Shown in pieces: positions 2,930 through 20,735 of a stretch of 64,000 nucleotides of DNA. A program made the position numbers and the translations under genes. The notes under the pieces are model-generated. The model searched no databases. It was not told the origin of the DNA and saw nothing but the letters and a program-made list of their open reading frames with translations. Source of the DNA: Candidatus Campbellbacteria bacterium RIFOXYC2_FULL_35_25 (lineage in GTDB: Bacteria > Patescibacteriota > Minisyncoccia > Phycocordibacterales > UBA12079); the NCBI GenBank assembly GCA_001774495.1, contig MFAE01000014.1, forward strand, positions 10,573 through 74,572. The letters are read 5' to 3'. The first letter of the stretch is position 1, and each line of letters starts with the position of its first letter.

Positions 2930-3227
2930 GTAGGTTCTATGGAAAGTAAGTTTATTTCCTCGTCCTTATTATGAGAGGAAGTTTTGAAAAAAGATTTCTT
3001 TTGAGAGACTGCACTCTCCTGAATAATTTGCTAAAGTGAGATTTCTCCTTTAAAAAATTTTTACGTTCTTGGCGGGTGAAAGGAAATACTTTTCTTTTTG
3101 TAGGCATAGAACCTCCTCGTAAGTTGAAAGGACCATTATTTTTCTAAATAAACAATAGCAAAGGTATGTTTAGTTTACAAGTTTTTAGGTAGCAAAAGCG
3201 CTAGAATTTTTATCCTTTTTGTATTAT

Positions 3228-3331
3228 AATTGCGAGCGAGGATAAATAAGAATAAATCTAAATTTATTCTTATTATATCCGAGCGAAGGAATTATATGCT
3301 TCGCATATAATTGCGAGCGAGGATAAATAAG
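3228..3331 (+). repeat. Two direct copies of the 25-nt motif ATAATTGCGAGCGAGGATAAATAAG, separated by small hairpins, just upstream of tRNA-Cys
   Basis: Exact 25-mer at 3228-3252 and 3307-3331; related TATAATTGCGAGC at 20744-20756; the CGAGCGAG/CTCGCT motif also occurs near the rplU start. Confidence 0.6.
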
Positions 3332-3347
3332 GGGGAATCGGATAAAA

Positions 3348-3419
3348 GGCGTAGTGGCGAAGTGGTAACGCTGTGGTTTGCAAAACCACCATGCGCCGGT
3401 TCGATTCCGGCCTACGCCT
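3348..3419 (+). tRNA. tRNA-Cys (GCA)
   Basis: Acceptor GGCGTAG/CTACGCC, anticodon loop TTGCAAA, T-arm GCCGGTTCGATTCCGGC, discriminator T. Confidence 0.85.
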
Positions 3420-3436
3420 CAGTTGTTCTTTAAATT

Positions 3437-3518
3437 GCCTAGGTGGCGGAATTGGTATACGCGCACGACTTAAAATCGTGTCTCTCACGGGATGCGGGTT
3501 CGACTCCCGCCCTAGGCA
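3437..3518 (+). tRNA. tRNA-Leu (TAA)
   Basis: Acceptor GCCTAGG/CCTAGGC, anticodon loop CTTAAAA, long variable arm, T-arm GCGGGTTCGACTCCCGC. Confidence 0.85.
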
Positions 3519-3900
3519 CATTAGAAATACTAAATATAATTTATTAAAAATTATATTTAGTATTTCTAATTCGTAAGTTGAGGGAGTCGAACAGAACTTT
3601 TTAAAAGCAAATTTCTTTGCTTTTAAAAAGTCCGAGGCTTCGGAGGAAAAAATTTTGATGTCGTTTCACGACCAAAAATTTTTGGAGGAGAAGGACTCCC
3701 GCCCTAGGCACATTAGAAACATTGAATATATTTTTTGTGGGGTATATTCAATGTTTCTAATCCGTAGGTTGCGGGAGTCGAACAGAACTTTTTAAAAGCA
3801 AATTTTTTTGCTTTTAAAAAGTCCGAGGCTTCGGAGGAAAAAGTTTTCTTTATCGCTTTGCGATTGAAAACTTTTGAGGGAGAAGGACTCCCGCCCTAGG
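3519..3900 (+). repeat. Two tandem ~190-nt structured units (3519-3710 and 3711-3900). Each ends with a direct copy of the tRNA-Leu 3' end (GGACTCCCGCCCTAGG, followed by CA in the first unit).
   Basis: Each unit has a ~50-nt perfect palindrome (cattagaaatactaaatataatttattaaaaattatatttagtatttctaat), then tcgtaag, then gagggagtcgaacagaac (the reverse complement of the Leu T-arm), then small hairpins, then the tRNA 3' copy. Confidence 0.7.
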
Positions 3901-3914
3901 AAAATTAGAAATAT

Positions 3915-3987
3915 CCGTTCGTAGCTCAGTTGGTAGAGCAACCGGCTCTTAACCGGTAGGTCGAAGGTTCGAACCCTTCCGAGCGGA
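3915..3987 (+). tRNA. tRNA-Lys (CTT)
   Basis: Acceptor CCGTTCG/CGAGCGG with one G-U pair, anticodon loop CTCTTAA, T-arm GAAGGTTCGAACCCTTC. Confidence 0.85.
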
Positions 3988-4181
3988 CAAGTGAGCCCTT
4001 TTTGGGCGAGCGCGGAAGTTCGGAGAAAAGCAAACAATTTTGCTTTTCGTAAGGGTTCGAACGACGGAACATGTCGAGCAGAGCGAGACAGTGAGTCGCG
4101 TCCAGTAGTACTTAAATTTTTACGAGCGAAGCGAAGTAAAAAGTTTAGTAACTATGGGACGAACCCTTCCGAGCGGACAAG
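3988..4181 (+). repeat. ~190-nt tRNA-linked element ending with a direct copy of the tRNA-Lys 3' end (GGGACGAACCCTTCCGAGCGGACAAG at 4156-4181)
   Basis: Contains ttcgtaagGGTTCGAACgacggaacatg (reverse complement of the Lys T-arm) and a core related to the Trp- and Ala-linked elements. Confidence 0.65.
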
Positions 4182-4566
4182 CGAGTCTTTATTAGATGAG
4201 CATAAAAAAAGTACAAAAACATTTATAAATTAAAAAATAATAAGTATGTCACAAGATCAATTGATAAAACTAGCATGCCAGGATTGTAAAAGGATTAATT
4301 ACTGGAGCAGGAAAAACAAAAAACTTGTCACCAAAAAGATAGAACTTAAAAAGTTTTGTAAGTGGTGTAAGAAGCAGACTAATCACAAAGAAGTTAAGAA
4401 ATAAACTTAAATTTAGCGCAGGGCTTTGTCGGTTTCAGAAAAATTTGTTTCACCGTATTTGTAATACGTTTCAAAAAATTTTTCCTTACCTCCTCGCCCT
4501 GCATCTAAATTAAAATTTATTTAACGATTTTGTAATTTGGTGATTGAAATTTGTTATTTTAAACAC

Positions 4567-4638
4567 TGGGTCTATAGTTTCAATGGTAAAACATCGGTTT
4601 CCAAAACCGCAGTTCGAGGTTCGAGTCCTCGTGGACCC
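4567..4638 (+). tRNA. tRNA-Trp (CCA)
   Basis: Acceptor GGGTCTA/TGGACCC, anticodon loop TTCCAAA, T-arm CGAGGTTCGAGTCCTCG, discriminator G. Confidence 0.8.
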
Positions 4639-4682
4639 GCAAAATAAAAGCCCCCTAAGGGGGCTTTTATTTTGCGGGTCCA
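4630..4682 (+). terminator. Perfect 25-bp inverted repeat with a 3-nt loop that incorporates the tRNA-Trp 3' acceptor strand; probable intrinsic terminator
   Basis: gtggacccgcaaaataaaagccccc taa gggggcttttattttgcgggtccac. Confidence 0.6.
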
Positions 4683-4692
4683 CAGCAAAGTG

Positions 4693-4870
4693 CCTGCGCA
4701 CTTTGCGTGAGGACTCGAACGGCGGAGACATGTTTTGCAAAGCAAAACAGTCGAGCCGCGTCCAGCGATACTTTGTAAATTTTGAGGTACGAAAAAATTT
4801 ACTTAGTAATCGCGGGACGAGTCCTCGTGAAAGTGCCTGCGCACTTTGCGTGAGGGCTCGAACGGCGGAG
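4693..4870 (+). repeat. tRNA-Trp-linked element. It ends with a direct copy of the T-loop/T-stem (GGGACGAGTCCTCGTG, 4814-4829) and is followed by a second partial copy of its 5' part (4830-4870).
   Basis: aaagtgcctgcgcacttt hairpin, then gcgtgaGGACTCGAACggcggagacatgttttgcaaagcaaaacagtcgagccgcgtccag; the hairpin plus gagggctcgaacggcggag is repeated at 4830-4870. Confidence 0.65.
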
Positions 4871-4940
4871 CAGTTTTGTGAATATAAAAAAGAGGTGTGC
4901 CCATCACGAGCACACCTCCTTGTTCTTAAACCCAGAGCCA

Positions 4941-5504
4941 TTAGTTTGGCCATGCTTCAATCAAAGCTTCGAGAATTCTTGCCATTTCCATACTGCCACC
5001 ACATTGCCCAGTGACGATTGCTTCGTCGACAAACCCATGTTTTTTGAGGTTCTGTAGACTCGGAAATTTATCCTTAAGGCCACAATCGCAAGTTAGCGTC
5101 GCGATGTAAGCATCCGGGAAGTCATCCCTTAAGGACTCGGTAAAATGAGTGGCTTCAGAAAAGCCAGACAGCCCGAGGTAAATCATGAAAAATAGGTTCT
5201 CGTGCAGGACAACTTCTGGATGTTCCCCGAGCAAACATTGTTCTACGTTTTGCTGGCAAATACTGGCCCTCATCTCCATTTGTGAAGGAGATGACCATTC
5301 CGAAACTCGTTCTCTGTGTCCATTTTCCGTTTCGCTCGCCGAGTAAACACTCAAACCTTGTTTCCCCGTGTCCACTTGGCCCCTATAACCCTGAATGCTG
5401 TTATAGGAGGTGAAGACGGCCGATAATTGACTTTTGCCTTTAATAATTTCTGGTATCTTCGCAATAAAATCTTCGGGTTTGATTAGCATCTCGGATTCCT
5501 CCAC
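4941..5504 (-). CDS. Hypothetical protein with visibly higher GC than its neighbours
   Basis: 187-aa ORF containing CDCG and GQCGGS motifs; a hairpin terminator at 4893-4920 lies downstream on the minus strand; no family recognised. Confidence 0.45.
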   Translation of the reverse strand: MEESEMLIKPEDFIAKIPEIIKGKSQLSAVFTSYNSIQGYRGQVDTGKQGLSVYSASETENGHRERVSEWSSPSQMEMRASICQQNVEQCLLGEHPEVVLHENLFFMIYLGLSGFSEATHFTESLRDDFPDAYIATLTCDCGLKDKFPSLQNLKKHGFVDEAIVTGQCGGSMEMARILEALIEAWPN

Positions 5505-13587: not shown

Positions 13588-13593
13588 CACAAC

Positions 13594-13632
13594 CAAAATA
13601 AAACACCATTTTTTTAGATGGTGTTTTATTTT
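13594..13632 (+). terminator. Palindromic rho-independent terminator after tRNA-Ala
   Basis: aaaataaaacaccat ttttttag atggtgttttatttt. Confidence 0.7.
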
Positions 13633-13639
13633 GTGTTGC

Positions 13640-13850
13640 TGTGCCAGAAGAAAGCAAACTGCTTTGCTTTCGTGAGGAATCGAAAGGCGGAATCATGTTT
13701 TGCGAAGCAAAACAGACGAGCCGGGGTCGCGAGCACTTAATAGATTTCGAGCCGAAGACGAAGAAATATATTTAGTGACTCGTGACCGATTCCTCTCTGG
13801 TCCATATTTTTACTTAGAACTGGGGACCGATTCCTCTCTGGTCCACCAAA
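13640..13850 (+). repeat. tRNA-Ala-linked element with two direct copies of the tRNA-Ala 3' end (GACCGATTCCTCTCTGGTCCA at 13784-13804 and 13825-13845)
   Basis: ctttcgtgaGGAATCGAAaggcggaatcatgttttgcgaagcaaaacagacgagccggggtcgcgagcactt; the core is homologous to the Trp-linked element. Confidence 0.65.
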
Positions 13851-14399
13851 ATCTAGACCCAAAAGCGACAGCTTTCGGGCCTAGATTTTGGTGGAATATT
13901 CTAGACTTTGCGCGAAATTATTTTGAGAACGAATGAAGCTTACGCTCCGATTTCTTCTAAACTTTAAACCGCCTGCTACGCCCCACTAAAGCGGAAGTTT
14001 CGGCGAAACGACTTGTCGCCTCCGTAAACTCTGGCGACAACCAACACCAAAAAAATTCTTTTCCTTTTCTCTCTAGGGTCTGTTCAAGATTTCACCGCAA
14101 ACATATATTATTTACTACTCTAAAGAGTAGAGTTTGCTTGTCGGCTAAAACTTCATAATTTTGGCTACAAATTTTTAAAATTTCGTCAGTATATCTTGAT
14201 ATACTTCTTCAATTTTTAAAATTTTCGCACAAAATTCTGAAGTTTTATCTCGACATGAAATCTTGAACAAACTCTTGAAATTTGGGGGGGGCGAAAAAAG
14301 AAAGGAAAAAACGCAAAGAAATTTTTTTGGGTTGGTTTCGAACTTATAGGCAGTATCTTAATACTTTAAGATGCTGCCCGCTTCTAGCCATTTTTTGTT

Positions 14400-14427
14400 C
14401 CAACGGCTCAACGACTTGAGCCGTTGG
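14400..14427. repeat. Copy 1 of the palindromic motif CAACGGCTCAACGA(C/G)TTGAGCCGTTG; further copies at 18387-18410 and 20755-20780
   Basis: Three near-identical 11-12 bp stem palindromes in intergenic positions: copy 1 ahead of the first island gene, copy 2 inside the island, copy 3 after the last. Confidence 0.7.
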
Positions 14428-14496
14428 TTTATCGACATACCGTTATATTATAATATAACATTGTGGTATACTATAACAAGCGATATACTGTTGATA

Positions 14497-14703
14497 ATGA
14501 ATGGTGAATCTGAAAAACTTGGTAAAAATTTAAATAAAATTAGAACAAGTAAAAAAATATCGCAAGGTGATATTGCTCGCTCGTTAGGAGTTAGCCGTGG
14601 TTTTATTAGTAACATAGAAAATGGTAAAACTAACCCTACACTTGCAACGATTAGTAAAATAGCAAAAGCTGTTGGTGTTTCTACTGACGAATTATTAAAA
14701 TAA
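14497..14703 (+). CDS. XRE-family HTH regulator, resembling a restriction-modification controller (C) protein
   Basis: ~68 aa; LGKNLNKIRTSKKISQGDIARSLGVSRGFISNIENGKTNPTLATISKIAKAVGVS. Confidence 0.65.
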   Translation: MNGESEKLGKNLNKIRTSKKISQGDIARSLGVSRGFISNIENGKTNPTLATISKIAKAVGVSTDELLK

Positions 14704-14705
14704 TT

Positions 14706-15776
14706 ATGAGTAAAGAAAAAACAAGTTCAAATAGTAACCTACATAAAGCTAATAGGGCAAAAAAAGACGAGTTTTATACTCAGCTTATTGATATTGAAAA
14801 GGAGTTAAAACACTACAAAGAACAATTTCGTGACAAGGTAGTATATTGTAACTGCGATGACCCCTTTGAAAGTAATTTTTTCAAATATTTTGCCTCAAAC
14901 TTTAATGTTCTGGGCTTAAAAAAACTCATTGCCACCAGTTACAAACCATCCCCAATTGCTAATACTCAATTAGGATTATTTGGTGATGACAAAAAACTCT
15001 CAAAATCAAAAGGTCGCCCAAAAACAACAGCTAATAAATTTATCATCAACGAAGCTAGTGATTTTGATGGTGATGGTGCATTTGACCTTCATGATATAGC
15101 AGAACAACTAAAGGCTAATAAAAATAATGAGTGGGCTCCTCTTAAAGGTGATGGGGATTTTAAAAGCCCAGAAAGTATAGAACTTTTAAAACAAGCAGAT
15201 ATTGTCGTAACTAATCCACCTTTTTCATTATTTAGGGAATATGTTGCTCAATTAGTTGAGTATGATAAAAAATTTTTAATATTAGGTCAGCAGGGAGCGG
15301 TGATCTATAAAGAATTTATTCCTCTAATCAAAGAAAATAAAGTTTGGCTCGGACATGATAATGGTGGAACAAAATGGTTTCAAGTTCCTATGGATTATGA
15401 CATCCCAACAGAATCAAGAAAAAAAAATGTTGACGGTGTAAAATATTTCAGCATGGGAAGTGTTAATTGGTATACAAATCTCGAAGTTGCTCGTCGCCAC
15501 AATGATCTTGTATTATATAAAAAATATAATCCTAAGGAATATTTTAAATATGATAATTATGATGGAATTAACGTAAATAGATATATCGATATCCCAATGG
15601 ATTATGAAGGAGTAATGGGTGTACCAATTACTTTTCTTAACTACCATAACCCTGATCAGTTTGAGATTATAGGATTAGATAGGTACACGGGAAAGAATGG
15701 AGATAAAGATTTTACTATTAACGGGAAAATGTTGTTTCGTCGTATATTAATTAAAAATAAAAGACCACAAAAATAA
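14706..15776 (+). CDS. N6-adenine (amino-class) DNA methyltransferase
   Basis: DEFYTQ (motif X-like), VYCNCDDPFESNFF (motif I-like), IVVTNPPFS (motif IV, NPPF). Confidence 0.65.
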   Translation: MSKEKTSSNSNLHKANRAKKDEFYTQLIDIEKELKHYKEQFRDKVVYCNCDDPFESNFFKYFASNFNVLGLKKLIATSYKPSPIANTQLGLFGDDKKLSKSKGRPKTTANKFIINEASDFDGDGAFDLHDIAEQLKANKNNEWAPLKGDGDFKSPESIELLKQADIVVTNPPFSLFREYVAQLVEYDKKFLILGQQGAVIYKEFIPLIKENKVWLGHDNGGTKWFQVPMDYDIPTESRKKNVDGVKYFSMGSVNWYTNLEVARRHNDLVLYKKYNPKEYFKYDNYDGINVNRYIDIPMDYEGVMGVPITFLNYHNPDQFEIIGLDRYTGKNGDKDFTINGKMLFRRILIKNKRPQK

Positions 15777-15780
15777 TGAT

Positions 15781-16884
15781 ATGATAATAAATTTACATAA
15801 GATTAAAATCTCTGAGATTGTAAAGGATTATAAGGACAGCGATGAAGAAGGGGTGTCTGCTTTTGGTGGTAAATTAGATATTCGTCCTAAGTATCAAAGA
15901 GAGTTTGTATATAGTGGTAAACAAAGAGATGAAGTGATCAGAACTGTCAAAAATGGTTTTCCTTTAAATGTTATGTATTGGGTGAAAAAAGAAGACAAAA
16001 ATTTTGAAGTACTTGATGGACAACAAAGGACAATTAGTATCGCCCAATTTGTAAATGGAGATTTTTCAATTGAATTTAACGGAAGAATCGCAATGTTTCA
16101 TAATCTAACTAAAGAAGAACAAGAGCAGATTATGAATTATGATCTTATGATTTATCACTGTGAAGGAACCGATAAGGAAAAGCTCGACTGGTTTAAGATT
16201 ATTAATATTGCTGGTGAGAAATTGTTTCCTCAAGAGCTACGAAATGCTGTGTATACTGGCCCATGGCTTTCAGATGCAAAGCTGAAGTTTAGTAAATCAA
16301 ATTGTGCGTCTTATTTGTTAGCAAATGACGGTGGTCAATTAATAACAGGTTCTCCTATAAGACAAGAGTATCTAGAAACTGCATTATCATGGATAAACAA
16401 TGATGAAATAGAACAATATATGGCACAACATCAACATGACAAAGATGCAGATGAGTTGTGGCAGTATTTTCAAAATGTAATCCATTGGGTACGGAAAACT
16501 TTTCCTCATTATAGAAAAGAGATGTCAGGCGTAAATTGGGGCGAACTCTATAACGCATTTAAAAACAAAAAACTTAATCCAGAAAAATTAGAGAAAGAAA
16601 TTAAAAGATTGATGCAAGATGAAGACGTCACAAAAAAATCTGGGATCTATTCATATATATTAACTCTCAAGGAGCGATACCTTTCTATACGGGCATTCAC
16701 ACCAAATATGAAACGTGAAGCATATGAAAGACAAAATGGTGTTTGCCCTGAATGTAATAAAGATTTTTCACTTTCAGAAATGGAAACGGATCATATTGAT
16801 CCGTGGCATGAAGGTGGAAGAACAATAGCAGAAAATTGCCAGATGTTATGCAAAGAATGTAATAGACGAAAATCTGGAAAATAA
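15781..16884 (+). CDS. DUF262 (ParB-like, DGQQR) plus C-terminal HNH nuclease fusion; GmrSD-like restriction-type nuclease
   Basis: LDGQQRT motif; C-terminus CPECN..HIDPWHEGGRT..NCQMLCKECNRRK. Confidence 0.65.
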   Translation: MIINLHKIKISEIVKDYKDSDEEGVSAFGGKLDIRPKYQREFVYSGKQRDEVIRTVKNGFPLNVMYWVKKEDKNFEVLDGQQRTISIAQFVNGDFSIEFNGRIAMFHNLTKEEQEQIMNYDLMIYHCEGTDKEKLDWFKIINIAGEKLFPQELRNAVYTGPWLSDAKLKFSKSNCASYLLANDGGQLITGSPIRQEYLETALSWINNDEIEQYMAQHQHDKDADELWQYFQNVIHWVRKTFPHYRKEMSGVNWGELYNAFKNKKLNPEKLEKEIKRLMQDEDVTKKSGIYSYILTLKERYLSIRAFTPNMKREAYERQNGVCPECNKDFSLSEMETDHIDPWHEGGRTIAENCQMLCKECNRRKSGK

Positions 16885-16888
16885 AATT

Positions 16889-17998
16889 ATGAAAAAAATC
16901 GAAGTAAAAATCACAGAAAAAGATAAGGGTACAAAAGACCTGTCCTTGCTTAACCTACGCGATGAAGTTGTTAATTTTCTATATAAAGATACCGTTGCTA
17001 ATTCAACAAAAACAGACATGCAATTCTTCGTTTTGCTTTTCTTTGCGTCTATTCAAGTTGAACAAAAGACCTTTTTGGAAAAAATTTTAGAAGACGGTGT
17101 GCCGAAATTCAAAAAGCTAAATGCAGTATTTTCAAACAGAAAAGGATATTTACATGCAGGAGAGTATAAAAAGATGGTTGACGAACATGGGCTTACTGAG
17201 TTGTTTAAAAACGATATTTTCTTTGTAATTATTGAAGCCGTTTTAAATATTGACGAAATAAAAAGTCGTTTCTCTGAGCTTTTTGAAAAACATAAAAAAT
17301 TAGGAGATTCCATAATTTCAATCGGAGAAAAATATTCAAGAGATTTAGAAGAAAGTTTCAAAGATTTCCAGACCTCAAGAATTCAGGACGATAGATACGA
17401 TGAGCACGGAAATTATCATGATTTAAGCAAAAGCGTATATAGGACTGTTAGGATGCGAAATTCTAGGAACCTTGATTTAAATCTTCAGCGATATACCTCA
17501 ATAAAGAAGATTACCAGTGAATCGCCAGTTGATTTAACCTTTCTTCAACATATTGATCCACAAATCATTTTTGATTTGTGGGATAAGTATCAAGTTGCTG
17601 AATACATGAAGTCAATGTGGAGTACAGCAAATAATAGCCCGATAATCGCTAATACAGTTGGGGGTATTTTTGGTGGATTGGTTGTGCTGTATGCTCAATG
17701 GAAACTTATCGACGGAAGAAAAAATAGAACAGAAAAAAAGAAAGCGAAGCAAAAATTCGAAAAATCAAAAACAGAGAACGGACATATTCTTGATGATCTT
17801 ACACTTAGGCTTGTTGATTCTGTGTTAAAGGCAAACGAAAGATTAGAAAAAGAGGTTGAGGTAAATAGAACAAAAGTTCGAGAACTTTCGAGTGAAAATC
17901 TCCTGATTCAAGATAAAGATAAAATAAAAAAGCTTGAAGAGCGAATTGCTCAACTTGAAAACTTATCTGTACAAGCAAAAGTTATTGACTATAAGTAG
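16889..17998 (+). CDS. Hypothetical protein with a C-terminal coiled coil
   Basis: 369-aa ORF tightly packed after the nuclease gene. Confidence 0.4.
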   Translation: MKKIEVKITEKDKGTKDLSLLNLRDEVVNFLYKDTVANSTKTDMQFFVLLFFASIQVEQKTFLEKILEDGVPKFKKLNAVFSNRKGYLHAGEYKKMVDEHGLTELFKNDIFFVIIEAVLNIDEIKSRFSELFEKHKKLGDSIISIGEKYSRDLEESFKDFQTSRIQDDRYDEHGNYHDLSKSVYRTVRMRNSRNLDLNLQRYTSIKKITSESPVDLTFLQHIDPQIIFDLWDKYQVAEYMKSMWSTANNSPIIANTVGGIFGGLVVLYAQWKLIDGRKNRTEKKKAKQKFEKSKTENGHILDDLTLRLVDSVLKANERLEKEVEVNRTKVRELSSENLLIQDKDKIKKLEERIAQLENLSVQAKVIDYK

Positions 17999-18081
17999 AT
18001 GATAGGGAGCCACGCTTGCGCGCTTATGAGCAGGTGAGGCAATCACAATATGATTTGTTTATGGTGTGTTAAAATAAACTT

Positions 18082-18372
18082 ATGAATTTTATACTTTTAA
18101 TAATAGTTGCAATAGCAGGAATAATTATCGGAAGTTATTTTGGTGTGAAAAAAGATGGTTTGATTTTTGGGCAAACGAAGAAAAAGAAAGAAAACAAGGA
18201 AAGAATATTGAAATTTTTGGAAACTAATGAAAAAGTGACAAATAATGATATTGAGAAATTATTAGGAGTATCTGATGCAACTGCAACAAGGTATCTAAAT
18301 GAATTAGAAAAAGAGCAAAAAATCAAACAAATCGGCACGGTCGGTCATGCCGTATATTATCGCTTAATGTAG
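18082..18372 (+). CDS. Small membrane-anchored protein with a C-terminal winged-HTH tail
   Basis: N-terminal TM helix; C-terminus ATATRYLNELEKEQKIKQIGTVGHAVYYRL. Confidence 0.45.
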   Translation: MNFILLIIVAIAGIIIGSYFGVKKDGLIFGQTKKKKENKERILKFLETNEKVTNNDIEKLLGVSDATATRYLNELEKEQKIKQIGTVGHAVYYRLM

Positions 18373-18408
18373 CCACGAAGTGGCTGAACGGCTCAACGAG
18401 TTGAGCCG

Positions 18409-20061
18409 TTGAAAAGATTTATGAAAGACAAAGAATATTATTCAAATTTTGAAAACCAGCGTGATGAACACACTCAGAATATTTTAGGTTCGGAAAGCAA
18501 AAATAAAATTATTCTTGCTGGACCAGGAACTGGAAAAAGTTATTTATTTCAACAAATATGTAAAAACAATATTGAAAATGATCTTAACAACAATTTGACT
18601 CTATCTTTTATCAACGAATTAGTTAATGATTTATCAAAAGATTTACACGGACTTTCTGATGTAAAAACATTACACAGTTTTGCCTTAAAAAACATCTCTA
18701 AAAATACTAATTTTTTTATGAATTTAGGTGATGTAATTCAAGAAGATTATAAAATTATAAAAAATAAAGAAGTTAGTTTTAAAGATATATTTTATAACCT
18801 TGAGGAAGAAAAAGAAGACGAATTAAATTTTTATTCAGAAAGGAGAAAATTTTATAATTTCTTTGGTCCAAACTGTTCTATATATACATTAATAAAAATA
18901 TTTGAAAATAATGAAGAAAAAATTCCAAAATATTCTCAAATTTTAATAGATGAATTTCAAGACTTTAATAAATTAGAAAGCCGCCTGATAGACTTATTGG
19001 CAGAAAAAAACTCAATGGTCATTGCTGGGGACGATGACCAATCATTATATTCTTTCAAAAATGCAAATCCTCAAGAAATAAGAGACAAACACAAATCAGA
19101 AGAATATACATCTTTTGAGTTACCTTTTTGTTCAAGATGTCCTGAAGTTATAATAAATTCTTTTCATAATATAGTCGACAAAGCTAAGGCAGAAGGTTTT
19201 TTGAAAGATAGAATTTCAAAAGAATACAAGTATTTTCCTTCAGTAGAAAAAGACCTACTATCATCGCAAAACCCTAAACTCATAATAAATAAAGGGGTAT
19301 ATCAAAACCAAATTGCTTTTAACATTGAAAAAGAAATAAAAAGCATATCTGATTCAGGAAAAAAAGATTTTTCTGTTTTAGTAATATGTTCTTTAAAATC
19401 ACAAATAAAAAGCTTAGAGAAAGCTTTGCGTAAAAAAGGCTTTAATAATATTGAATCACCTCAAGAAAAGAAAGGAGGTGATTTAATTGACGGGCTAAAA
19501 TTGTTACAAAAAGATAAAGAATGTAATTTAGGGTGGAGAATTGTCTCAAAAATAATTTTAGAAAATAATAATAAAGATATTAAAGATATTATTAAAAAAA
19601 GCCACTCTAATTTAAATAAAAAATTTTATGAATTATTAGATAAAAATGATGTTAAATATATAAAACAAGTACTCGCAATATTTAAAAAAGTTAATGAAAA
19701 TAAATCATTAAAAAAAGAAGAGTATCAAAAAATTTTAGATTGTTTCGGTTATAATCAAGAAAATATTGTGTTAGAAAAATTAAAAGAAGATTTTCAAGAT
19801 AACAATAATCAAAAAACAAATTACAAGAATATACCTATAAAAATAACAACCATTCTCGGCTCAAAAGGGCTGACCAATGATTATGTCTTTCTTGTCAATT
19901 TTGATGATGGATATCTTTTTGGAAAAGAGAAAAAAATAACTGATGAAAATATTTGTAAATTTTTAGTTGCGTTAACAAGAGCAAAGAAAAAAATCTATCT
20001 TTATGCAAACAACAACAAGTTACCTACTTTTGTAAATTGGATTGATAAAAATAATTATTAA
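18409..20061 (+). CDS. Superfamily 1 (UvrD/PcrA-like) helicase, short form
   Basis: Walker A AGPGTGKS, motif II ILIDEFQDF, C-terminal ILGSKGL...VALTRAKKKIYLY. Confidence 0.6.
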   Translation: MKRFMKDKEYYSNFENQRDEHTQNILGSESKNKIILAGPGTGKSYLFQQICKNNIENDLNNNLTLSFINELVNDLSKDLHGLSDVKTLHSFALKNISKNTNFFMNLGDVIQEDYKIIKNKEVSFKDIFYNLEEEKEDELNFYSERRKFYNFFGPNCSIYTLIKIFENNEEKIPKYSQILIDEFQDFNKLESRLIDLLAEKNSMVIAGDDDQSLYSFKNANPQEIRDKHKSEEYTSFELPFCSRCPEVIINSFHNIVDKAKAEGFLKDRISKEYKYFPSVEKDLLSSQNPKLIINKGVYQNQIAFNIEKEIKSISDSGKKDFSVLVICSLKSQIKSLEKALRKKGFNNIESPQEKKGGDLIDGLKLLQKDKECNLGWRIVSKIILENNNKDIKDIIKKSHSNLNKKFYELLDKNDVKYIKQVLAIFKKVNENKSLKKEEYQKILDCFGYNQENIVLEKLKEDFQDNNNQKTNYKNIPIKITTILGSKGLTNDYVFLVNFDDGYLFGKEKKITDENICKFLVALTRAKKKIYLYANNNKLPTFVNWIDKNNY

Positions 20062-20063
20062 AA

Positions 20064-20735
20064 ATGCCACCAGAAGAAAATCAAAAAAATACAGTTGAAG
20101 AAATTCCTGTTTCGGCTCCGCCGAAACAGGAAGTCGTTGAAAATGTTCCCGTTGTTGAAGAAACCCCTGCTCCAATTGAAACTCTTGTGGAAGAACAAAC
20201 TGAAAATATTGAAAATATTGAAAATGTTGAAACTGAAGTCGTTGAGCCAATAATAATTGAGTCTGTAACAGAAACGCCGATTATTGAAACGACTGAACCG
20301 ATAGAACAAATAGAAAACGAAGAAACTGGATTGCTTCACTTTGTTCGCAAAGACGAAGCTGTTGAAGAAATTCCACAAGTTGAAGAAGTGAAACAGTCTC
20401 AATCTGTTCAACAAGAACAACCTCAACCGCAGTCAGAACCTCAACCACAACAAACTCAAACTGTTGAAAAAATTATTTATCAAACTCCGCCTAATTTGAT
20501 TCAAAATCTCTTAACCAAAGCGAGAGCAAAAATTCAAGAAAGGAAAAATAAGAAGTTGAATAAAATAATGTCACTTTTTGAATCAAATTCAAATATTTCT
20601 AACTCGGATGTTCAAAAATTGCTACGAACTACTAAAAGAAGTGCAACAAGATATTTAAATATTCTTGAAAAAGAGCAAAAGATAATTCAAGTTGGAAATG
20701 CTGGCAGAGGTGTAAAATACATCAAAAAACCTTAA
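20064..20735 (+). CDS. Acidic low-complexity protein (ENIENIENVETEVVEP, QPQPQSEPQPQQ) carrying the same winged-HTH tail as the 18082 gene
   Basis: C-terminus SATRYLNILEKEQKIIQVGNAGRGVKYI. Confidence 0.45.
   Translation: MPPEENQKNTVEEIPVSAPPKQEVVENVPVVEETPAPIETLVEEQTENIENIENVETEVVEPIIIESVTETPIIETTEPIEQIENEETGLLHFVRKDEAVEEIPQVEEVKQSQSVQQEQPQPQSEPQPQQTQTVEKIIYQTPPNLIQNLLTKARAKIQERKNKKLNKIMSLFESNSNISNSDVQKLLRTTKRSATRYLNILEKEQKIIQVGNAGRGVKYIKKP

What the first reader, a model, noticed from the sequence alone, without database searches (positions are those of the whole stretch)
3988..4181. tRNA-Lys followed by a ~190-nt element terminating in a 26-nt copy of the tRNA-Lys T-loop-to-trailer segment
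GGGACGAACCCTTCCGAGCGGACAAG at 4156-4181 duplicates tRNA-Lys from the T-loop through the discriminator and 4 nt of trailer. The T-loop start GGTTC is replaced by GGGAC. The element begins ...cttttcgtaaGGGTTCGAACgacggaacatg (reverse complement of the Lys T-arm). Its core (CATG..CGAGC..GCGTCCAG..TACTT) is homologous to the Trp- and Ala-linked elements.
Basis: seen in the sequence. Interest (0 to 1): 0.65.

Follow-up and report, generated by a model that had tools for sequence, protein, structure and literature searches.

The report
tRNA-anchored structured mini-elements in CPR bacteria
Behind tRNA-Lys (and three other tRNAs here) sits a roughly 190-base non-coding element with a conserved folded core, an antisense copy and a sense copy of that tRNA's 3' end, which belongs to an apparently undescribed family found at many tRNA genes across Patescibacteria and in some Elusimicrobia genomes.

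Summary
Positions 4160-4181 repeat tRNA-Lys exactly from C56 to four bases past the discriminator, and GGTT is replaced by GGGA just upstream. The Lys, Trp and Ala elements are homologous (covariance model, 83-97 bits). They share one architecture: tRNA, a hairpin, X' (the reverse complement of the tRNA 3' part), a three-way-junction core, then X (the tRNA 3' copy). The Leu elements have the same layout around a different core.

A pattern scan found more than 120 loci, nearly all Patescibacteria plus Elusimicrobiales. The model found 136 copies. Of these, 79 lie about 55 nt behind a same-strand tRNA, covering 18 amino-acid types. Covariation is strong (93% of cells paired against 71% in shuffles), and G.U asymmetry says the tRNA-sense strand folds.

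The element is present or absent at orthologous tRNAs in close relatives. It forms tandem and truncated copies and sometimes carries cargo. Near-identical cores sit at different tRNAs in different genomes. I found no recombinase, reverse transcriptase, Rfam family, phage or plasmid match, or paper.

Best reading: a new kind of non-autonomous, tRNA T-loop-anchored selfish element with a functional folded core. The mechanism is unresolved.

The parts
3915..3987 (+). tRNA-Lys (CTT), intact. Its 3' part from C56 (3970) is copy X(A).
   Evidence: ARAGORN; Rfam tRNA model, 71.9 bits
3970..3991 (+). X(A): tRNA-Lys from C56 to four bases past the discriminator. First copy of the 22-nt exact direct repeat.
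   Evidence: the repeat finder D6
3992..4024 (+). Trailer hairpin (GCCC-TTTTT-GGGC) followed by a degenerate antisense stretch (GCGCGGAAGTTCGGAG).
   Evidence: Sequence; fold. It is homologous to the trailer after X(B) and to the trailer of the empty Lys site in L140.
4025..4048 (+). h0 hairpin, GAAAAGCAAA-CAAT-TTTGCTTTTC. A conserved module also seen in the Ala element, inside the Leu elements and in many other genomes.
   Evidence: the repeat finder D5; contexts
4048..4062 (+). X' (CGTAAGGGTTCGAAC): reverse complement of the tRNA-Lys T-loop and 3' T-stem. It forms the 5' strand of helix P1.
   Evidence: I14; folds; model alignment
4063..4159 (+). Conserved three-way-junction core, subtype B. 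P2/P3 runs from GACGGAA to GAGTC, the joiner is GC, and P4/P5 runs from GTCCAGTAGTACTT to AGTAACTATGGGA.
   Evidence: R1 hit 4048-4171, 87.4 bits; covariation; RNA fold z-score -5.2
4160..4181 (+). X(B): second copy of tRNA-Lys from C56 to +4. It is the 3' strand of P1 and directly abuts P4. The trailer homology continues to about 4204.
3520..3903 (+). Two tandem Leu-type elements with a 191-192 nt period. Each has a hairpin, X' (GGGAGTCGAAC), a four-helix core and X (GACTCCCGCCCTAGG).
   Evidence: the repeat finder D1-D3 and I16; folds
4641..4829 (+). Trp element, subtype B: terminator-like hairpin, anti-acceptor 4675-4683, h0 4684-4708, anti-T 4709-4720, core, then X(B) 4818-4829.
   Evidence: 83.5 bits
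4830..4873 (+). Truncated second Trp element: h0, X' with a G.U-compatible change, and the start of P2. It is complete in a strain variant, L005.
   Evidence: D4
13588..13804 (+). Ala element, subtype A: hairpin, h0, X', core, and X(B) at 13787-13804.
   Evidence: R1 hit 13671-13798, 96.6 bits
13810..13845 (+). Remnant consisting of the last ~18 nt of a core followed by a third copy of the tRNA-Ala 3' end (13828-13845).

Best explanation
The Lys element is one copy of a family of small, protein-less, selfish insertion elements that live at the T-loop and 3' end of tRNA genes. The unit is X (the tRNA from C56 to its 3' end), a variable hairpin, X' (antisense to X, ending in the invariant TCGAA), and a conserved ~100-nt three-way-junction core. 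The core's last helix abuts the displaced original tRNA 3' end. The net effect is an insertion between T55 and C56 that rebuilds an intact tRNA and leaves a second 3' end downstream.

Shown here: the tRNA-sense strand folds into the core, most likely as RNA. The elements come and go at orthologous tRNAs. They duplicate in tandem, decay, and sit at recombination breakpoints.

Inferred: they spread between genomes by recombination. The conserved tRNA body serves as the left homology arm and X(B) as the right one. They move to new tRNA species by exchange at the universal T-loop bases that bound both arms (TCGAA and CGA). A trans-acting enzyme that recognises the folded core may catalyse this, with X' selecting the target. 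That enzyme was not found.
For: Architecture and exact repeat.

Family: more than 120 pattern loci, nearly all Patescibacteria plus Elusimicrobiales. The model finds 136 copies in 100 loci.

tRNA linkage: 79 copies lie a median of 55 nt behind a same-strand tRNA of 18 amino-acid types, and 77 of 145 tRNAs in those loci are occupied. Occupied tRNAs have the T-loop GTTCGA 74 times and GTTCAA 3 times; unoccupied ones 51 and 15 times.

Structure: 19 of 26 pairs are compensatory in the seed. In the full set 93.2% of cells are paired against 70.8% in shuffles, with 788 double changes, and slid controls give 29-43%. In the core helices G.T/T.G outnumber A.C/C.A 59 to 10. The plus-strand RNA fold has z -5.2 and reproduces the consensus.

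Mobility-type dynamics:
- Lys is occupied in the window and in L151 but empty in L140-143 and L153, and has no core in L139.
- Leu has 2, 1 or 0 copies in the window, L151 and L139 or L140.
- A second tandem Lys copy occurs in a same-population contig.
- Identical tandem copies occur in L049 and L026.
- Truncated copies occur.
- Cargo genes lie between the tRNA and the core in some loci.
- An inversion breakpoint sits at an element.

Horizontal spread and retargeting: cores are 88-91% identical between different genomes and different tRNAs, while neighbours in one locus are no more alike than random pairs (0.635 against 0.613).

Recombination within the tRNA: between the window and L151, identity falls from 99.4% upstream of tRNA-Trp to 94.6% inside it and 59.6% after it.

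Constraint on X(B): 0 of 22 mismatches against 7-8 in the next 20-25 trailer bases.

X' follows the upstream tRNA even where X(B) has decayed (mean perfect run 9.2 against 6.1 nt).
Against: No transposase, integrase, HUH enzyme or reverse transcriptase was found. This covers 8-kb flanks of about 110 loci and 40 ORFs of the window. No autonomous copy, free circle or precise-excision allele was seen. Movement is therefore inferred from comparative patterns only.

The strong conservation of the core and of X(B) would fit a host-beneficial RNA equally well.

The insertion can also be described as [X'-core-X] placed after the tRNA's own hairpin. The data do not decide which of the two copies is the incoming one.

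Retargeting by template switching and spread by homologous recombination are proposals, not observations.
Confidence: 0.5

Rival explanations
1. It is a host-beneficial cis-acting RNA module attached to tRNA genes. X' can pair either with the tRNA's own 3' part or with the decoy X(B). The conserved junction would then act as a sensor or protein-binding domain that controls folding, processing or read-through of the tRNA transcript. For Lys this could also affect the downstream rpmG gene.
For: Strong purifying selection on the core and covariation in the tRNA-sense strand. X(B) is kept identical to the tRNA while the adjacent trailer diverged. X' is kept complementary to the tRNA. The Lys element sits between tRNA-Lys and rpmG with no terminator called there. 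Four of the five tRNAs in the window carry one.
Against: Close relatives lack it at the same tRNAs. Tandem, truncated and chimeric copies occur. Core subfamilies do not follow tRNA type or genome. Many copies are separated from their tRNA by a strong bidirectional terminator-like hairpin, so co-transcription is doubtful. In many copies X(B) is decayed while the core is intact.
Confidence: 0.2
2. It is a guide-RNA gene for an unidentified RNA-guided nuclease, recombinase or transposase, working like a TnpB omega-RNA, a Cas12k homing crRNA or an IS110 bridge RNA. The core is the scaffold. X(B), about 20 nt at the scaffold's 3' end, and/or X' are the guides for the tRNA gene. GGTT in the T-loop would play the role of the adjacent motif, which is missing from the element's own copy (GGGA or GTGAC).
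For: The scaffold-then-guide order, with a conserved 22-nt block. The arms change with the tRNA while the core stays the same. Targets with G57 are preferred. The start of the element lies at a fairly fixed distance behind the tRNA.
Against: No effector gene is nearby. The rebuilt tRNA upstream carries the same motif and target, so a cutting enzyme would attack it. No similarity was found to Rfam omega-RNA or HEARO models; IS605-orfB-I scores E 0.59 and is not significant. The pairing of X' with X has no counterpart in those guides.
Confidence: 0.12
3. It is a small ribozyme or intron-like RNA. X' acts as an internal guide that binds the tRNA 3' part to form P1. Cleavage or ligation happens at the nick-like junction where P4 ends (GAC) and P1 begins (C56).
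For: No protein partner was found. Junction nucleotides are invariant, there is a tandem G.A loop in P2, a conserved G.U in P4, and a conserved bulged A 8 nt before the junction. There is no linker between P4 and P1. [quoted passage not shown]
Against: No match to any Rfam ribozyme or intron model. The tRNA upstream is already intact, so no splicing is needed. RNA-level chemistry cannot by itself produce the DNA copies, and group II introns were not detected in the phylum (PMC13011429).
Confidence: 0.1
4. These are ordinary scars of integrase-mediated islands or prophages that integrated in the T-loop of tRNA genes. On this reading the structure is attL, then fused attP arms, then attR, after the interior was deleted.
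For: A direct repeat running from the T-loop to the tRNA 3' end with a restored tRNA is the classic signature of such integration (established knowledge; repeat shown). Some copies have cargo genes.
Against: More than 70 independent copies have the same compact size and spacing. Compensatory changes in four helices and G.U strand asymmetry show selection on a folded single strand, not on protein-binding duplex arms. attR lacks the symmetric T-stem half-site. No integrase was seen. No match in phage, plasmid or IMG/VR collections.
Confidence: 0.07

Closest known systems
Tyrosine-integrase genomic islands and prophages that integrate in the T-loop sublocation of tRNA genes
   Same: The insertion point is in the T-loop. 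The element supplies a replacement tRNA 3' end. The displaced original 3' end remains as a direct repeat. Repeated integration gives tandem arrays.
   Different: The element is 130-190 nt with no integrase anywhere nearby. It has a conserved folded single-strand core and an antisense copy of the target. attR lacks the symmetric half-site.
Integron attC sites with ORF-less cassettes, and the folded single-stranded attP of CTX phage
   Same: A recombination unit defined by a folded single strand in which two inverted segments pair. Units are non-coding. Units form tandem arrays next to a fixed site.
   Different: No IntI or Xer link was found. The R''/R' consensus and the G|TT crossover do not fit. 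The paired arms are copied from the target tRNA. The core is a three-way junction.
IS200/IS605 miniature derivatives (PATEs) and the TnpB omega-RNA at the transposon right end
   Same: Small non-autonomous elements with subterminal hairpins. An internal guide pairs with flanking target DNA. A structured right-end RNA runs into the flank, which serves as the guide.
   Different: No TnpA or TnpB was found. The guide is 10-22 nt rather than 4-5 nt. A long target duplication is present. The left hairpin is hypervariable. There is no Rfam similarity.
IS110/IS1111 bridge (seek) RNA
   Same: A structured non-coding RNA of about 150 nt with programmable segments that match the target.
   Different: It is not attached to a recombinase gene. 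It has a single contiguous antisense arm plus a sense arm, rather than two internal loops with split guides.
Bacterial MITEs and REP/BIME-type repeats
   Same: Short, non-coding, structured, multi-copy, and a cause of assembly breaks and rearrangements.
   Different: The terminal inverted segments are not constant. They are re-derived from each target tRNA, and the target is always the same position of a tRNA gene.
Retron msr-msd non-coding RNA
   Same: The same topology: an outer stem (a1/a2 in retrons, X'/X here) enclosing two stem-loops.
   Different: There is no adjacent reverse transcriptase, and the outer stem is tRNA-derived.
Group I introns in Patescibacteria tRNA genes (PMC13011429)
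   Same: The same phylum and the same class of host gene. Both are protein-less structured RNA insertions.
   Different: Those introns sit in the anticodon loop (for example position 35/36), interrupt the tRNA, match the Rfam group I model and duplicate nothing. The elements here leave the tRNA intact and match no intron model.

Membership tests
Any Rfam 15 family, including ribozymes, group I/II introns, omega-RNA/HEARO and tmRNA | Score at or above the family's gathering threshold | tested here: not met
   Only the five tRNAs pass in the window. Permissive scans of 3300-5000 and of an A-type copy in L040 give only insignificant hairpin-like hits.
Integrase-mediated tRNA-integrating element | Direct repeat of the tRNA 3' part flanking the insert, with an intact tRNA at one end | tested here: met
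   22-nt exact repeat at 3970-3991 and 4160-4181, with intact tRNA-Lys.
Integrase-mediated tRNA-integrating element | A tyrosine or serine recombinase gene within the element or beside it | tested here: not met
   The element has no ORF. No recurrent recombinase in 8-kb flanks of about 110 loci. None among 40 window ORFs. A genome-wide trans-acting enzyme is not excluded.
Integron gene cassette / attC | R'' RYYYAAC and R' GTTRRRY boxes with crossover at G|TT, and an intI-attI platform | tested here: not met
   X' of subtype B ends in TCGAAC, which is only a near match. The right junction reads GGGA|CGA or GTGAC|CGA and has no GTT. No intI was found.
IS200/IS605 family (PATE) / TnpB omega-RNA | TnpA (Y1 HUH) and/or TnpB gene, conserved left and right hairpins, and no target duplication | tested here: not met
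   No such genes in the flanks or the window. The left hairpin is hypervariable even between 98%-related strains. A duplication of 22 nt or more is present. Presence elsewhere in the genome was not testable.
Retron | A reverse transcriptase gene next to the ncRNA | tested here: not met
   None in the flanks. A survey found no group II introns in the phylum (PMC13011429).
Hammerhead and other small self-cleaving ribozymes | Conserved catalytic core (for example CUGANGA...GAAA...UH at a three-way junction) and demonstrated cleavage | tested here: not met
   The joiners are GAAA or GAAC, then GG or GC, then none. No Rfam hit. Cleavage itself cannot be tested with these tools.
MITE | Constant terminal inverted repeats, a short target-site duplication, and a related autonomous transposon | tested here: inconclusive
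   Inverted arms (X' and X) exist, but they are target-derived and differ at every tRNA. No autonomous relative was found.
Structured RNA (general criterion) | Helices supported by compensatory substitutions beyond controls | tested here: met
   93.2% of cells paired against 70.8% in shuffles. 24 of 26 pairs have double changes. Slid controls give 29-43%. Caveat: the alignment was fitted to the model, but the independent MAFFT seed shows 19 of 26 compensatory pairs.

The most novel reading that the evidence does not exclude
This would be a programmable nucleic-acid system without a protein gene of its own. A ~100-nt three-way-junction RNA (or folded single-stranded DNA) would use a 10-22-nt antisense arm to recognise the T-arm of any tRNA gene and direct its own insertion exactly at T55|C56. 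It would act either as a ribozyme-like catalyst or as the guide of an unknown recombinase or nuclease encoded elsewhere in the genome. That would be a new class of guided mobile element, one that has colonised a large share of tRNA genes in Patescibacteria.
Probability: 0.2. Interest if true: 0.95.

Novelty: categorically new. Interest (0 to 1): 0.8.

Why it matters
If this holds, Patescibacteria, which have minimal genomes, carry at roughly half of the tRNA genes sampled a conserved structured element that nobody appears to have catalogued. I found no Rfam family, no paper containing the motif, and no phage or plasmid match.

It has several practical consequences. It would explain assembly breaks and rearrangements at tRNA loci. 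It affects tRNA annotation in CPR genomes, because pseudo 3' ends are present. It also offers a natural example of an element whose target-matching arms are swapped while a constant core is kept. That is the design principle behind guide-RNA tools.

Finding the partner enzyme, or showing that none is needed, would be of direct interest for mobile-element biology and genome engineering. Even under the mundane reading, it is a new, large family of structured RNA with more than a hundred members and good covariation support.

Tried and rejected
- **Known RNA family:** rejected by Rfam searches at gathering and permissive thresholds.
- **Decayed tRNA 5' half as the origin of X':** rejected. X' is a perfect Watson-Crick complement of the 3' strand, including the discriminator. 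In Trp it has C where the real 5' strand has a wobble U.
- **Minus-strand tRNA-like gene:** rejected by reading the reverse strand; no T-stem can form.
- **Phage or plasmid origin:** no hits in IMG/VR beyond one chance hit in unrelated high-GC sequence, and none in INPHARED phages or PLSDB plasmids.
- **Partner gene in cis:** clustering ORFs from about 110 loci gave only housekeeping neighbours such as HU, RNase Y, LepA and RuvA.
- **Autonomous version:** I followed the strain variant L005, where the second Trp element is complete. The DNA beyond it is an unrelated MITE-like repeat and a HepT toxin gene.
- **CCA test for a retro-origin of X(B):** inconclusive. CCA after the discriminator appears sometimes only in X(B) and sometimes only in the gene.
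- **Which copy is ancestral:** an early inference that the hairpin after X(A) is ancestral and that the insertion lies downstream of it was withdrawn. L151 showed that both trailers are homologous to each other.
- **Promoter scan:** only weak, near-chance sites.
- **BstBI-like TT|CGAA cutting as the origin of the junction:** rejected, because many targets have TTCGAG, TTCGAT or TTCGAC.

Full report
**1. The observation**

tRNA-Lys(CTT) lies at 3915-3987. The string GGGACGAACCCTTCCGAGCGGACAAG is at 4156-4181. Bases 4160-4181 are identical to 3970-3991, that is tRNA-Lys from C56 of the T-loop through the discriminator (A3987) plus the four trailer bases CAAG. In the copy, T54 and T55 of the tRNA are replaced by GA.

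The repeat finder reports the pair as 42 nt at 83% identity (D6). The first 22 nt are exact, and weaker similarity continues into the trailer. TCGTAAGGGTTCGAAC (4047-4062) is 94% complementary to the tRNA T-loop and 3' T-stem (I14).

The same layout follows three other tRNAs:
- tRNA-Trp, element 4641-4829, plus a truncated second copy to 4873.
- tRNA-Ala, element 13588-13804, plus a remnant with a third 3'-end copy at 13828-13845.
- tRNA-Leu, two tandem units in 3520-3903.

Only tRNA-Cys is free. The antisense segment changes with the tRNA: GAGGACTCGAAC for Trp, GAGGAATCGAA for Ala, GGGAGTCGAAC for Leu. So it is not a palindrome artefact of the Lys T-arm.

**2. Anatomy**

I use these labels: X(A) is the 3' part of the real tRNA, X' is its reverse complement, and X(B) is the downstream copy.

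Each unit reads: tRNA including X(A), a hairpin (often terminator-like), an optional conserved hairpin h0, X', the core, then X(B).

All copies fold the same way:
- P1 is formed by X' and X(B).
- P2/P3 has the pattern GRC-GGA-G...C-GA-GYC, with an invariant GGA/GA internal loop.
- A two-base joiner follows.
- P4/P5 ends in GAC. Its last pair uses C56, and it abuts P1 with no linker.

In the Trp element X' is a perfect 21-nt complement of C56 to the discriminator. It is split by h0 exactly at the boundary between T-stem and acceptor stem.

Two core subtypes covary:
- Subtype A: TCGAAAG...CGGGGTCG...CGTGACC|GA (the Ala element).
- Subtype B: TCGAAC...CGCGTCCAG...GCGGGAC|GA (the Lys and Trp elements).

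The Leu units keep the same logic (X', helices, GTCC...GGAC, X) around a different core.

**3. A large family**

About ten are chance hits in high-GC genomes. The rest are Patescibacteria (Paceibacteria orders, records labelled Saccharibacteria, Minisyncoccia and others) plus six loci from Elusimicrobiales.

A covariance model built from 39 copies finds only the Ala, Lys and Trp copies in the window, at 96.6, 87.4 and 83.5 bits. It finds 136 copies in 100 loci.

Of the 125 copies that can be judged:
- 79 start a median of 55 nt after a same-strand tRNA.
- 18 lie 151-450 nt behind one, as tandem or cargo-bearing copies.
- 28 have no tRNA called upstream. Some of these carry the 3' end of tRNA-Asn, a tRNA known to hide behind group I introns in this phylum (PMC13011429).

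Eighteen amino-acid types are hosts, and 77 of 145 tRNAs in these loci are occupied. That sample is biased, because the loci were chosen by pattern hits. Occupied tRNAs almost always have G57: GTTCGA 74 against GTTCAA 3, compared with 51 against 15 for unoccupied ones. This matches the invariant TCGAA at the end of X'.

**4. The fold is under selection**

RNAalifold on the independent MAFFT seed gives 26 pairs, 19 of them with compensatory changes. One example is a pair with AU 24, GC 15 and none broken.

On 134 distinct copies:
- 93.2% of cells are paired, against 70.8% in shuffles.
- 24 of 26 pairs show double changes, 788 cells in all.
- Sliding the partner strand by 1-3 columns drops pairing to 29-43%.

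In the core helices G.T/T.G outnumber A.C/C.A 59 to 10. So the strand that folds is the tRNA-sense strand.

With RNA parameters the Lys core folds at -43.7 kcal/mol (z -5.2) into the consensus. The opposite strand and DNA parameters do worse, and the DNA fold loses P2/P3.

The heptamer GCGAAGC occurs 37 times against 1.7 expected, and its complement never occurs. From memory, d(GCGAAGC) is a very stable DNA mini-hairpin. I treat that only as a lead and do not rule out folded single-stranded DNA.

**5. Evolutionary behaviour**

The window belongs to a Paceibacteria-like organism; its L33 protein is 87-92% identical to those of Campbellbacteria, Nomurabacteria and related Patescibacteria. The orthologous Cys-Leu-Lys-rpmG-Trp loci show turnover:

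| Locus | Relation (L33 identity) | Lys | Leu | Trp |
|---|---|---|---|---|
| Window | - | occupied | 2 units | subtype B core |
| L151 | 98% | occupied | 1 unit, a chimera of the window's two | not seen past the hairpin; the contig ends there |
| L139 | 92% | no core | 0 | subtype A core |
| L140-143 | 90% | empty | 0 | occupied |
| L153 | 87% | empty | no tRNA-Leu called | a core-like sequence follows; not model-scanned |
| L144-147 | 87% | no tRNA-Lys in the locus | no tRNA-Leu in the locus | empty |

Further observations:
- A same-population contig carries a second tandem Lys unit.
- L141 and L142 have the whole Cys-to-Trp segment inverted, with the breakpoint at a partial element.
- Between the window and L151, identity is 99.4% in the spacer before tRNA-Trp, 94.6% within the tRNA (differences from the D-loop to the anticodon stem) and 59.6% after it. 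The Lys element between the same two genomes is 98.2% identical. So a tRNA-plus-element block has been replaced by recombination, with a breakpoint inside the tRNA.
- Cores are up to 88-91% identical between different genomes and different tRNA types. Neighbours in one locus are no more alike than random pairs (0.635 against 0.613).
- Some copies have one or two cargo genes between the tRNA and the core, for example a NYN-domain gene and hypothetical genes.

**6. What is constrained**

In the Lys duplication the 22 tRNA-derived bases have no mismatch. The next 20-25 trailer bases have 7-8 mismatches in the window and 6 in L151. So X(B) is either conserved or converted.

Across loci, X' stays complementary to the upstream tRNA even where X(B) has decayed or comes from another tRNA, as in L044. 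Cores remain intact in those copies.

**7. What is missing**

There is no ORF in the element. No recurrent recombinase, transposase or reverse transcriptase appears within 8 kb of about 110 loci. None appears among 40 ORFs of the window. There are no hits in IMG/VR, INPHARED phages or PLSDB plasmids. Following the one longer variant led to an unrelated repeat.

Literature searches, including searches for the invariant motifs themselves, found nothing on this element. The nearest paper describes group I introns in the anticodon loop of Patescibacteria tRNAs and reports no group II introns in the phylum.

**8. Interpretation**

The best-supported reading is a non-autonomous selfish element anchored at T55|C56 of tRNA genes, with a functional folded core, probably RNA.

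The steps that are shown: the architecture, the family, the fold, the strand, the tRNA linkage, gain, loss and exchange, and the constraint on X' and X(B).

The steps that are inferred:
- Spread by recombination, with the tRNA and X(B) as portable homology arms. This would explain why identity stops near the tRNA end in most loci, and why the two Lys trailers are only about 70% alike.
- Retargeting by exchange at the universal T-loop bases that bound both arms.
- Possibly an unknown enzyme that reads the core, with X' as the target selector.

The rivals are listed with their tests: a host-beneficial switch-like RNA, a guide RNA for an unseen effector, a ribozyme, and integrase scars. The integrase-scar reading is the only one the data speak clearly against.

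Whether the incoming block is [X-hairpin-X'-core] inserted at the T-loop or [X'-core-X] inserted behind the tRNA hairpin cannot be decided from these data.

**9. Verdict**

The finding is real, reproducible and far from any catalogued system. The mechanism is open.

Noticed in passing
L140 2553-2836, L141 2650-2836, L153 2720-2886: A mirror-image family sits at the 5' side of tRNA-Lys. One to three copies of the tRNA 5' end (from -4 to G19, ...CCGYYCGTAGCTCAGYTGG) are each followed by a ~120-160-nt non-coding element, and then comes the intact tRNA. The element contains an h0-like hairpin, GCGAAGC and GAGTCGG motifs. The junction at G19 is the tertiary partner of C56.
   Followed up: partly
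window 14371-20735: Just downstream of the tRNA-Ala elements lies a defence-like gene block: an HTH protein, an EcoRI-type adenine methylase, a GmrSD_N plus HNH nuclease, a winged-HTH protein, a UvrD-like helicase and two unknown ORFs. There is no integrase and no further tRNA-Ala 3' copy in the window.
   Followed up: partly
L141/L142 versus L140 (whole loci): The Cys-Leu-Lys-rpmG-Trp segment is inverted between strains that share the same L33 protein. One breakpoint lies right after the Trp X(B) copy, where a partial h0 plus X' sits.
   Followed up: partly
L139 2866-2975: In L139, tRNA-Lys is followed by a diverged tRNA-Lys 3' half with an intact T-arm (GGTAGGTTCGATTCCTACTGAGCGAGACA). Its acceptor strand resembles the window's allele rather than L139's own tRNA. 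This suggests replacement of the tRNA gene.
   Followed up: no
L013 4080-4854: In this contig variant, tRNA-Cys is cut off in its 3' acceptor strand and joined to different DNA: tandem CGTATATCG-like repeats and what reads like a glutamine-amidotransferase-type gene, a guess from the sequence that I did not test. It may be an insertion or an assembly chimera.
   Followed up: no
L005 740-870; L154 (minus strand) about 1660-1545 and 810-700: Another small repeat with terminal inverted repeats (CCCYGTGTAATACC...CCTATTACACGGGGT, about 110 nt) abuts a complete core in place of a tRNA copy. It lies next to a HepT/DUF86-like toxin gene.
   Followed up: partly
window 3226-3250 and 3307-3331: A direct repeat, ATAATTGCGAGCGAGGATAAATAAG, occurs twice upstream of tRNA-Cys. 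The two copies flank an AT-rich palindrome and a CCGAGCGAAGG motif.
   Followed up: no
L052, L117, L106, L086, L065, L062, L043 (right junctions): Several copies carry an extra small hairpin (for example AAGTGTACTCACGG) inserted right after GACCGAA, inside the tRNA-derived arm. In L040, X(B) is split by a 45-nt insertion between its T-stem and acceptor parts.
   Followed up: no
window 4641-4674 versus L151 985-1026, L140, L153, L139: The hairpin between tRNA-Trp and X' is a perfect palindrome in every genome. Its tip sequence is completely different even between strains with 98% identical L33, while the outer stem is similar.
   Followed up: partly
window 4941-5504 (minus strand): A 187-aa ORF with no Pfam match lies between the truncated second Trp element and rbfA. 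It is absent at that position in L140.
   Followed up: partly
contigs L002-L017: Many metagenome contigs of this population end inside or beside the Leu, Lys and Trp elements. The elements therefore act as assembly-breaking repeats.
   Followed up: partly
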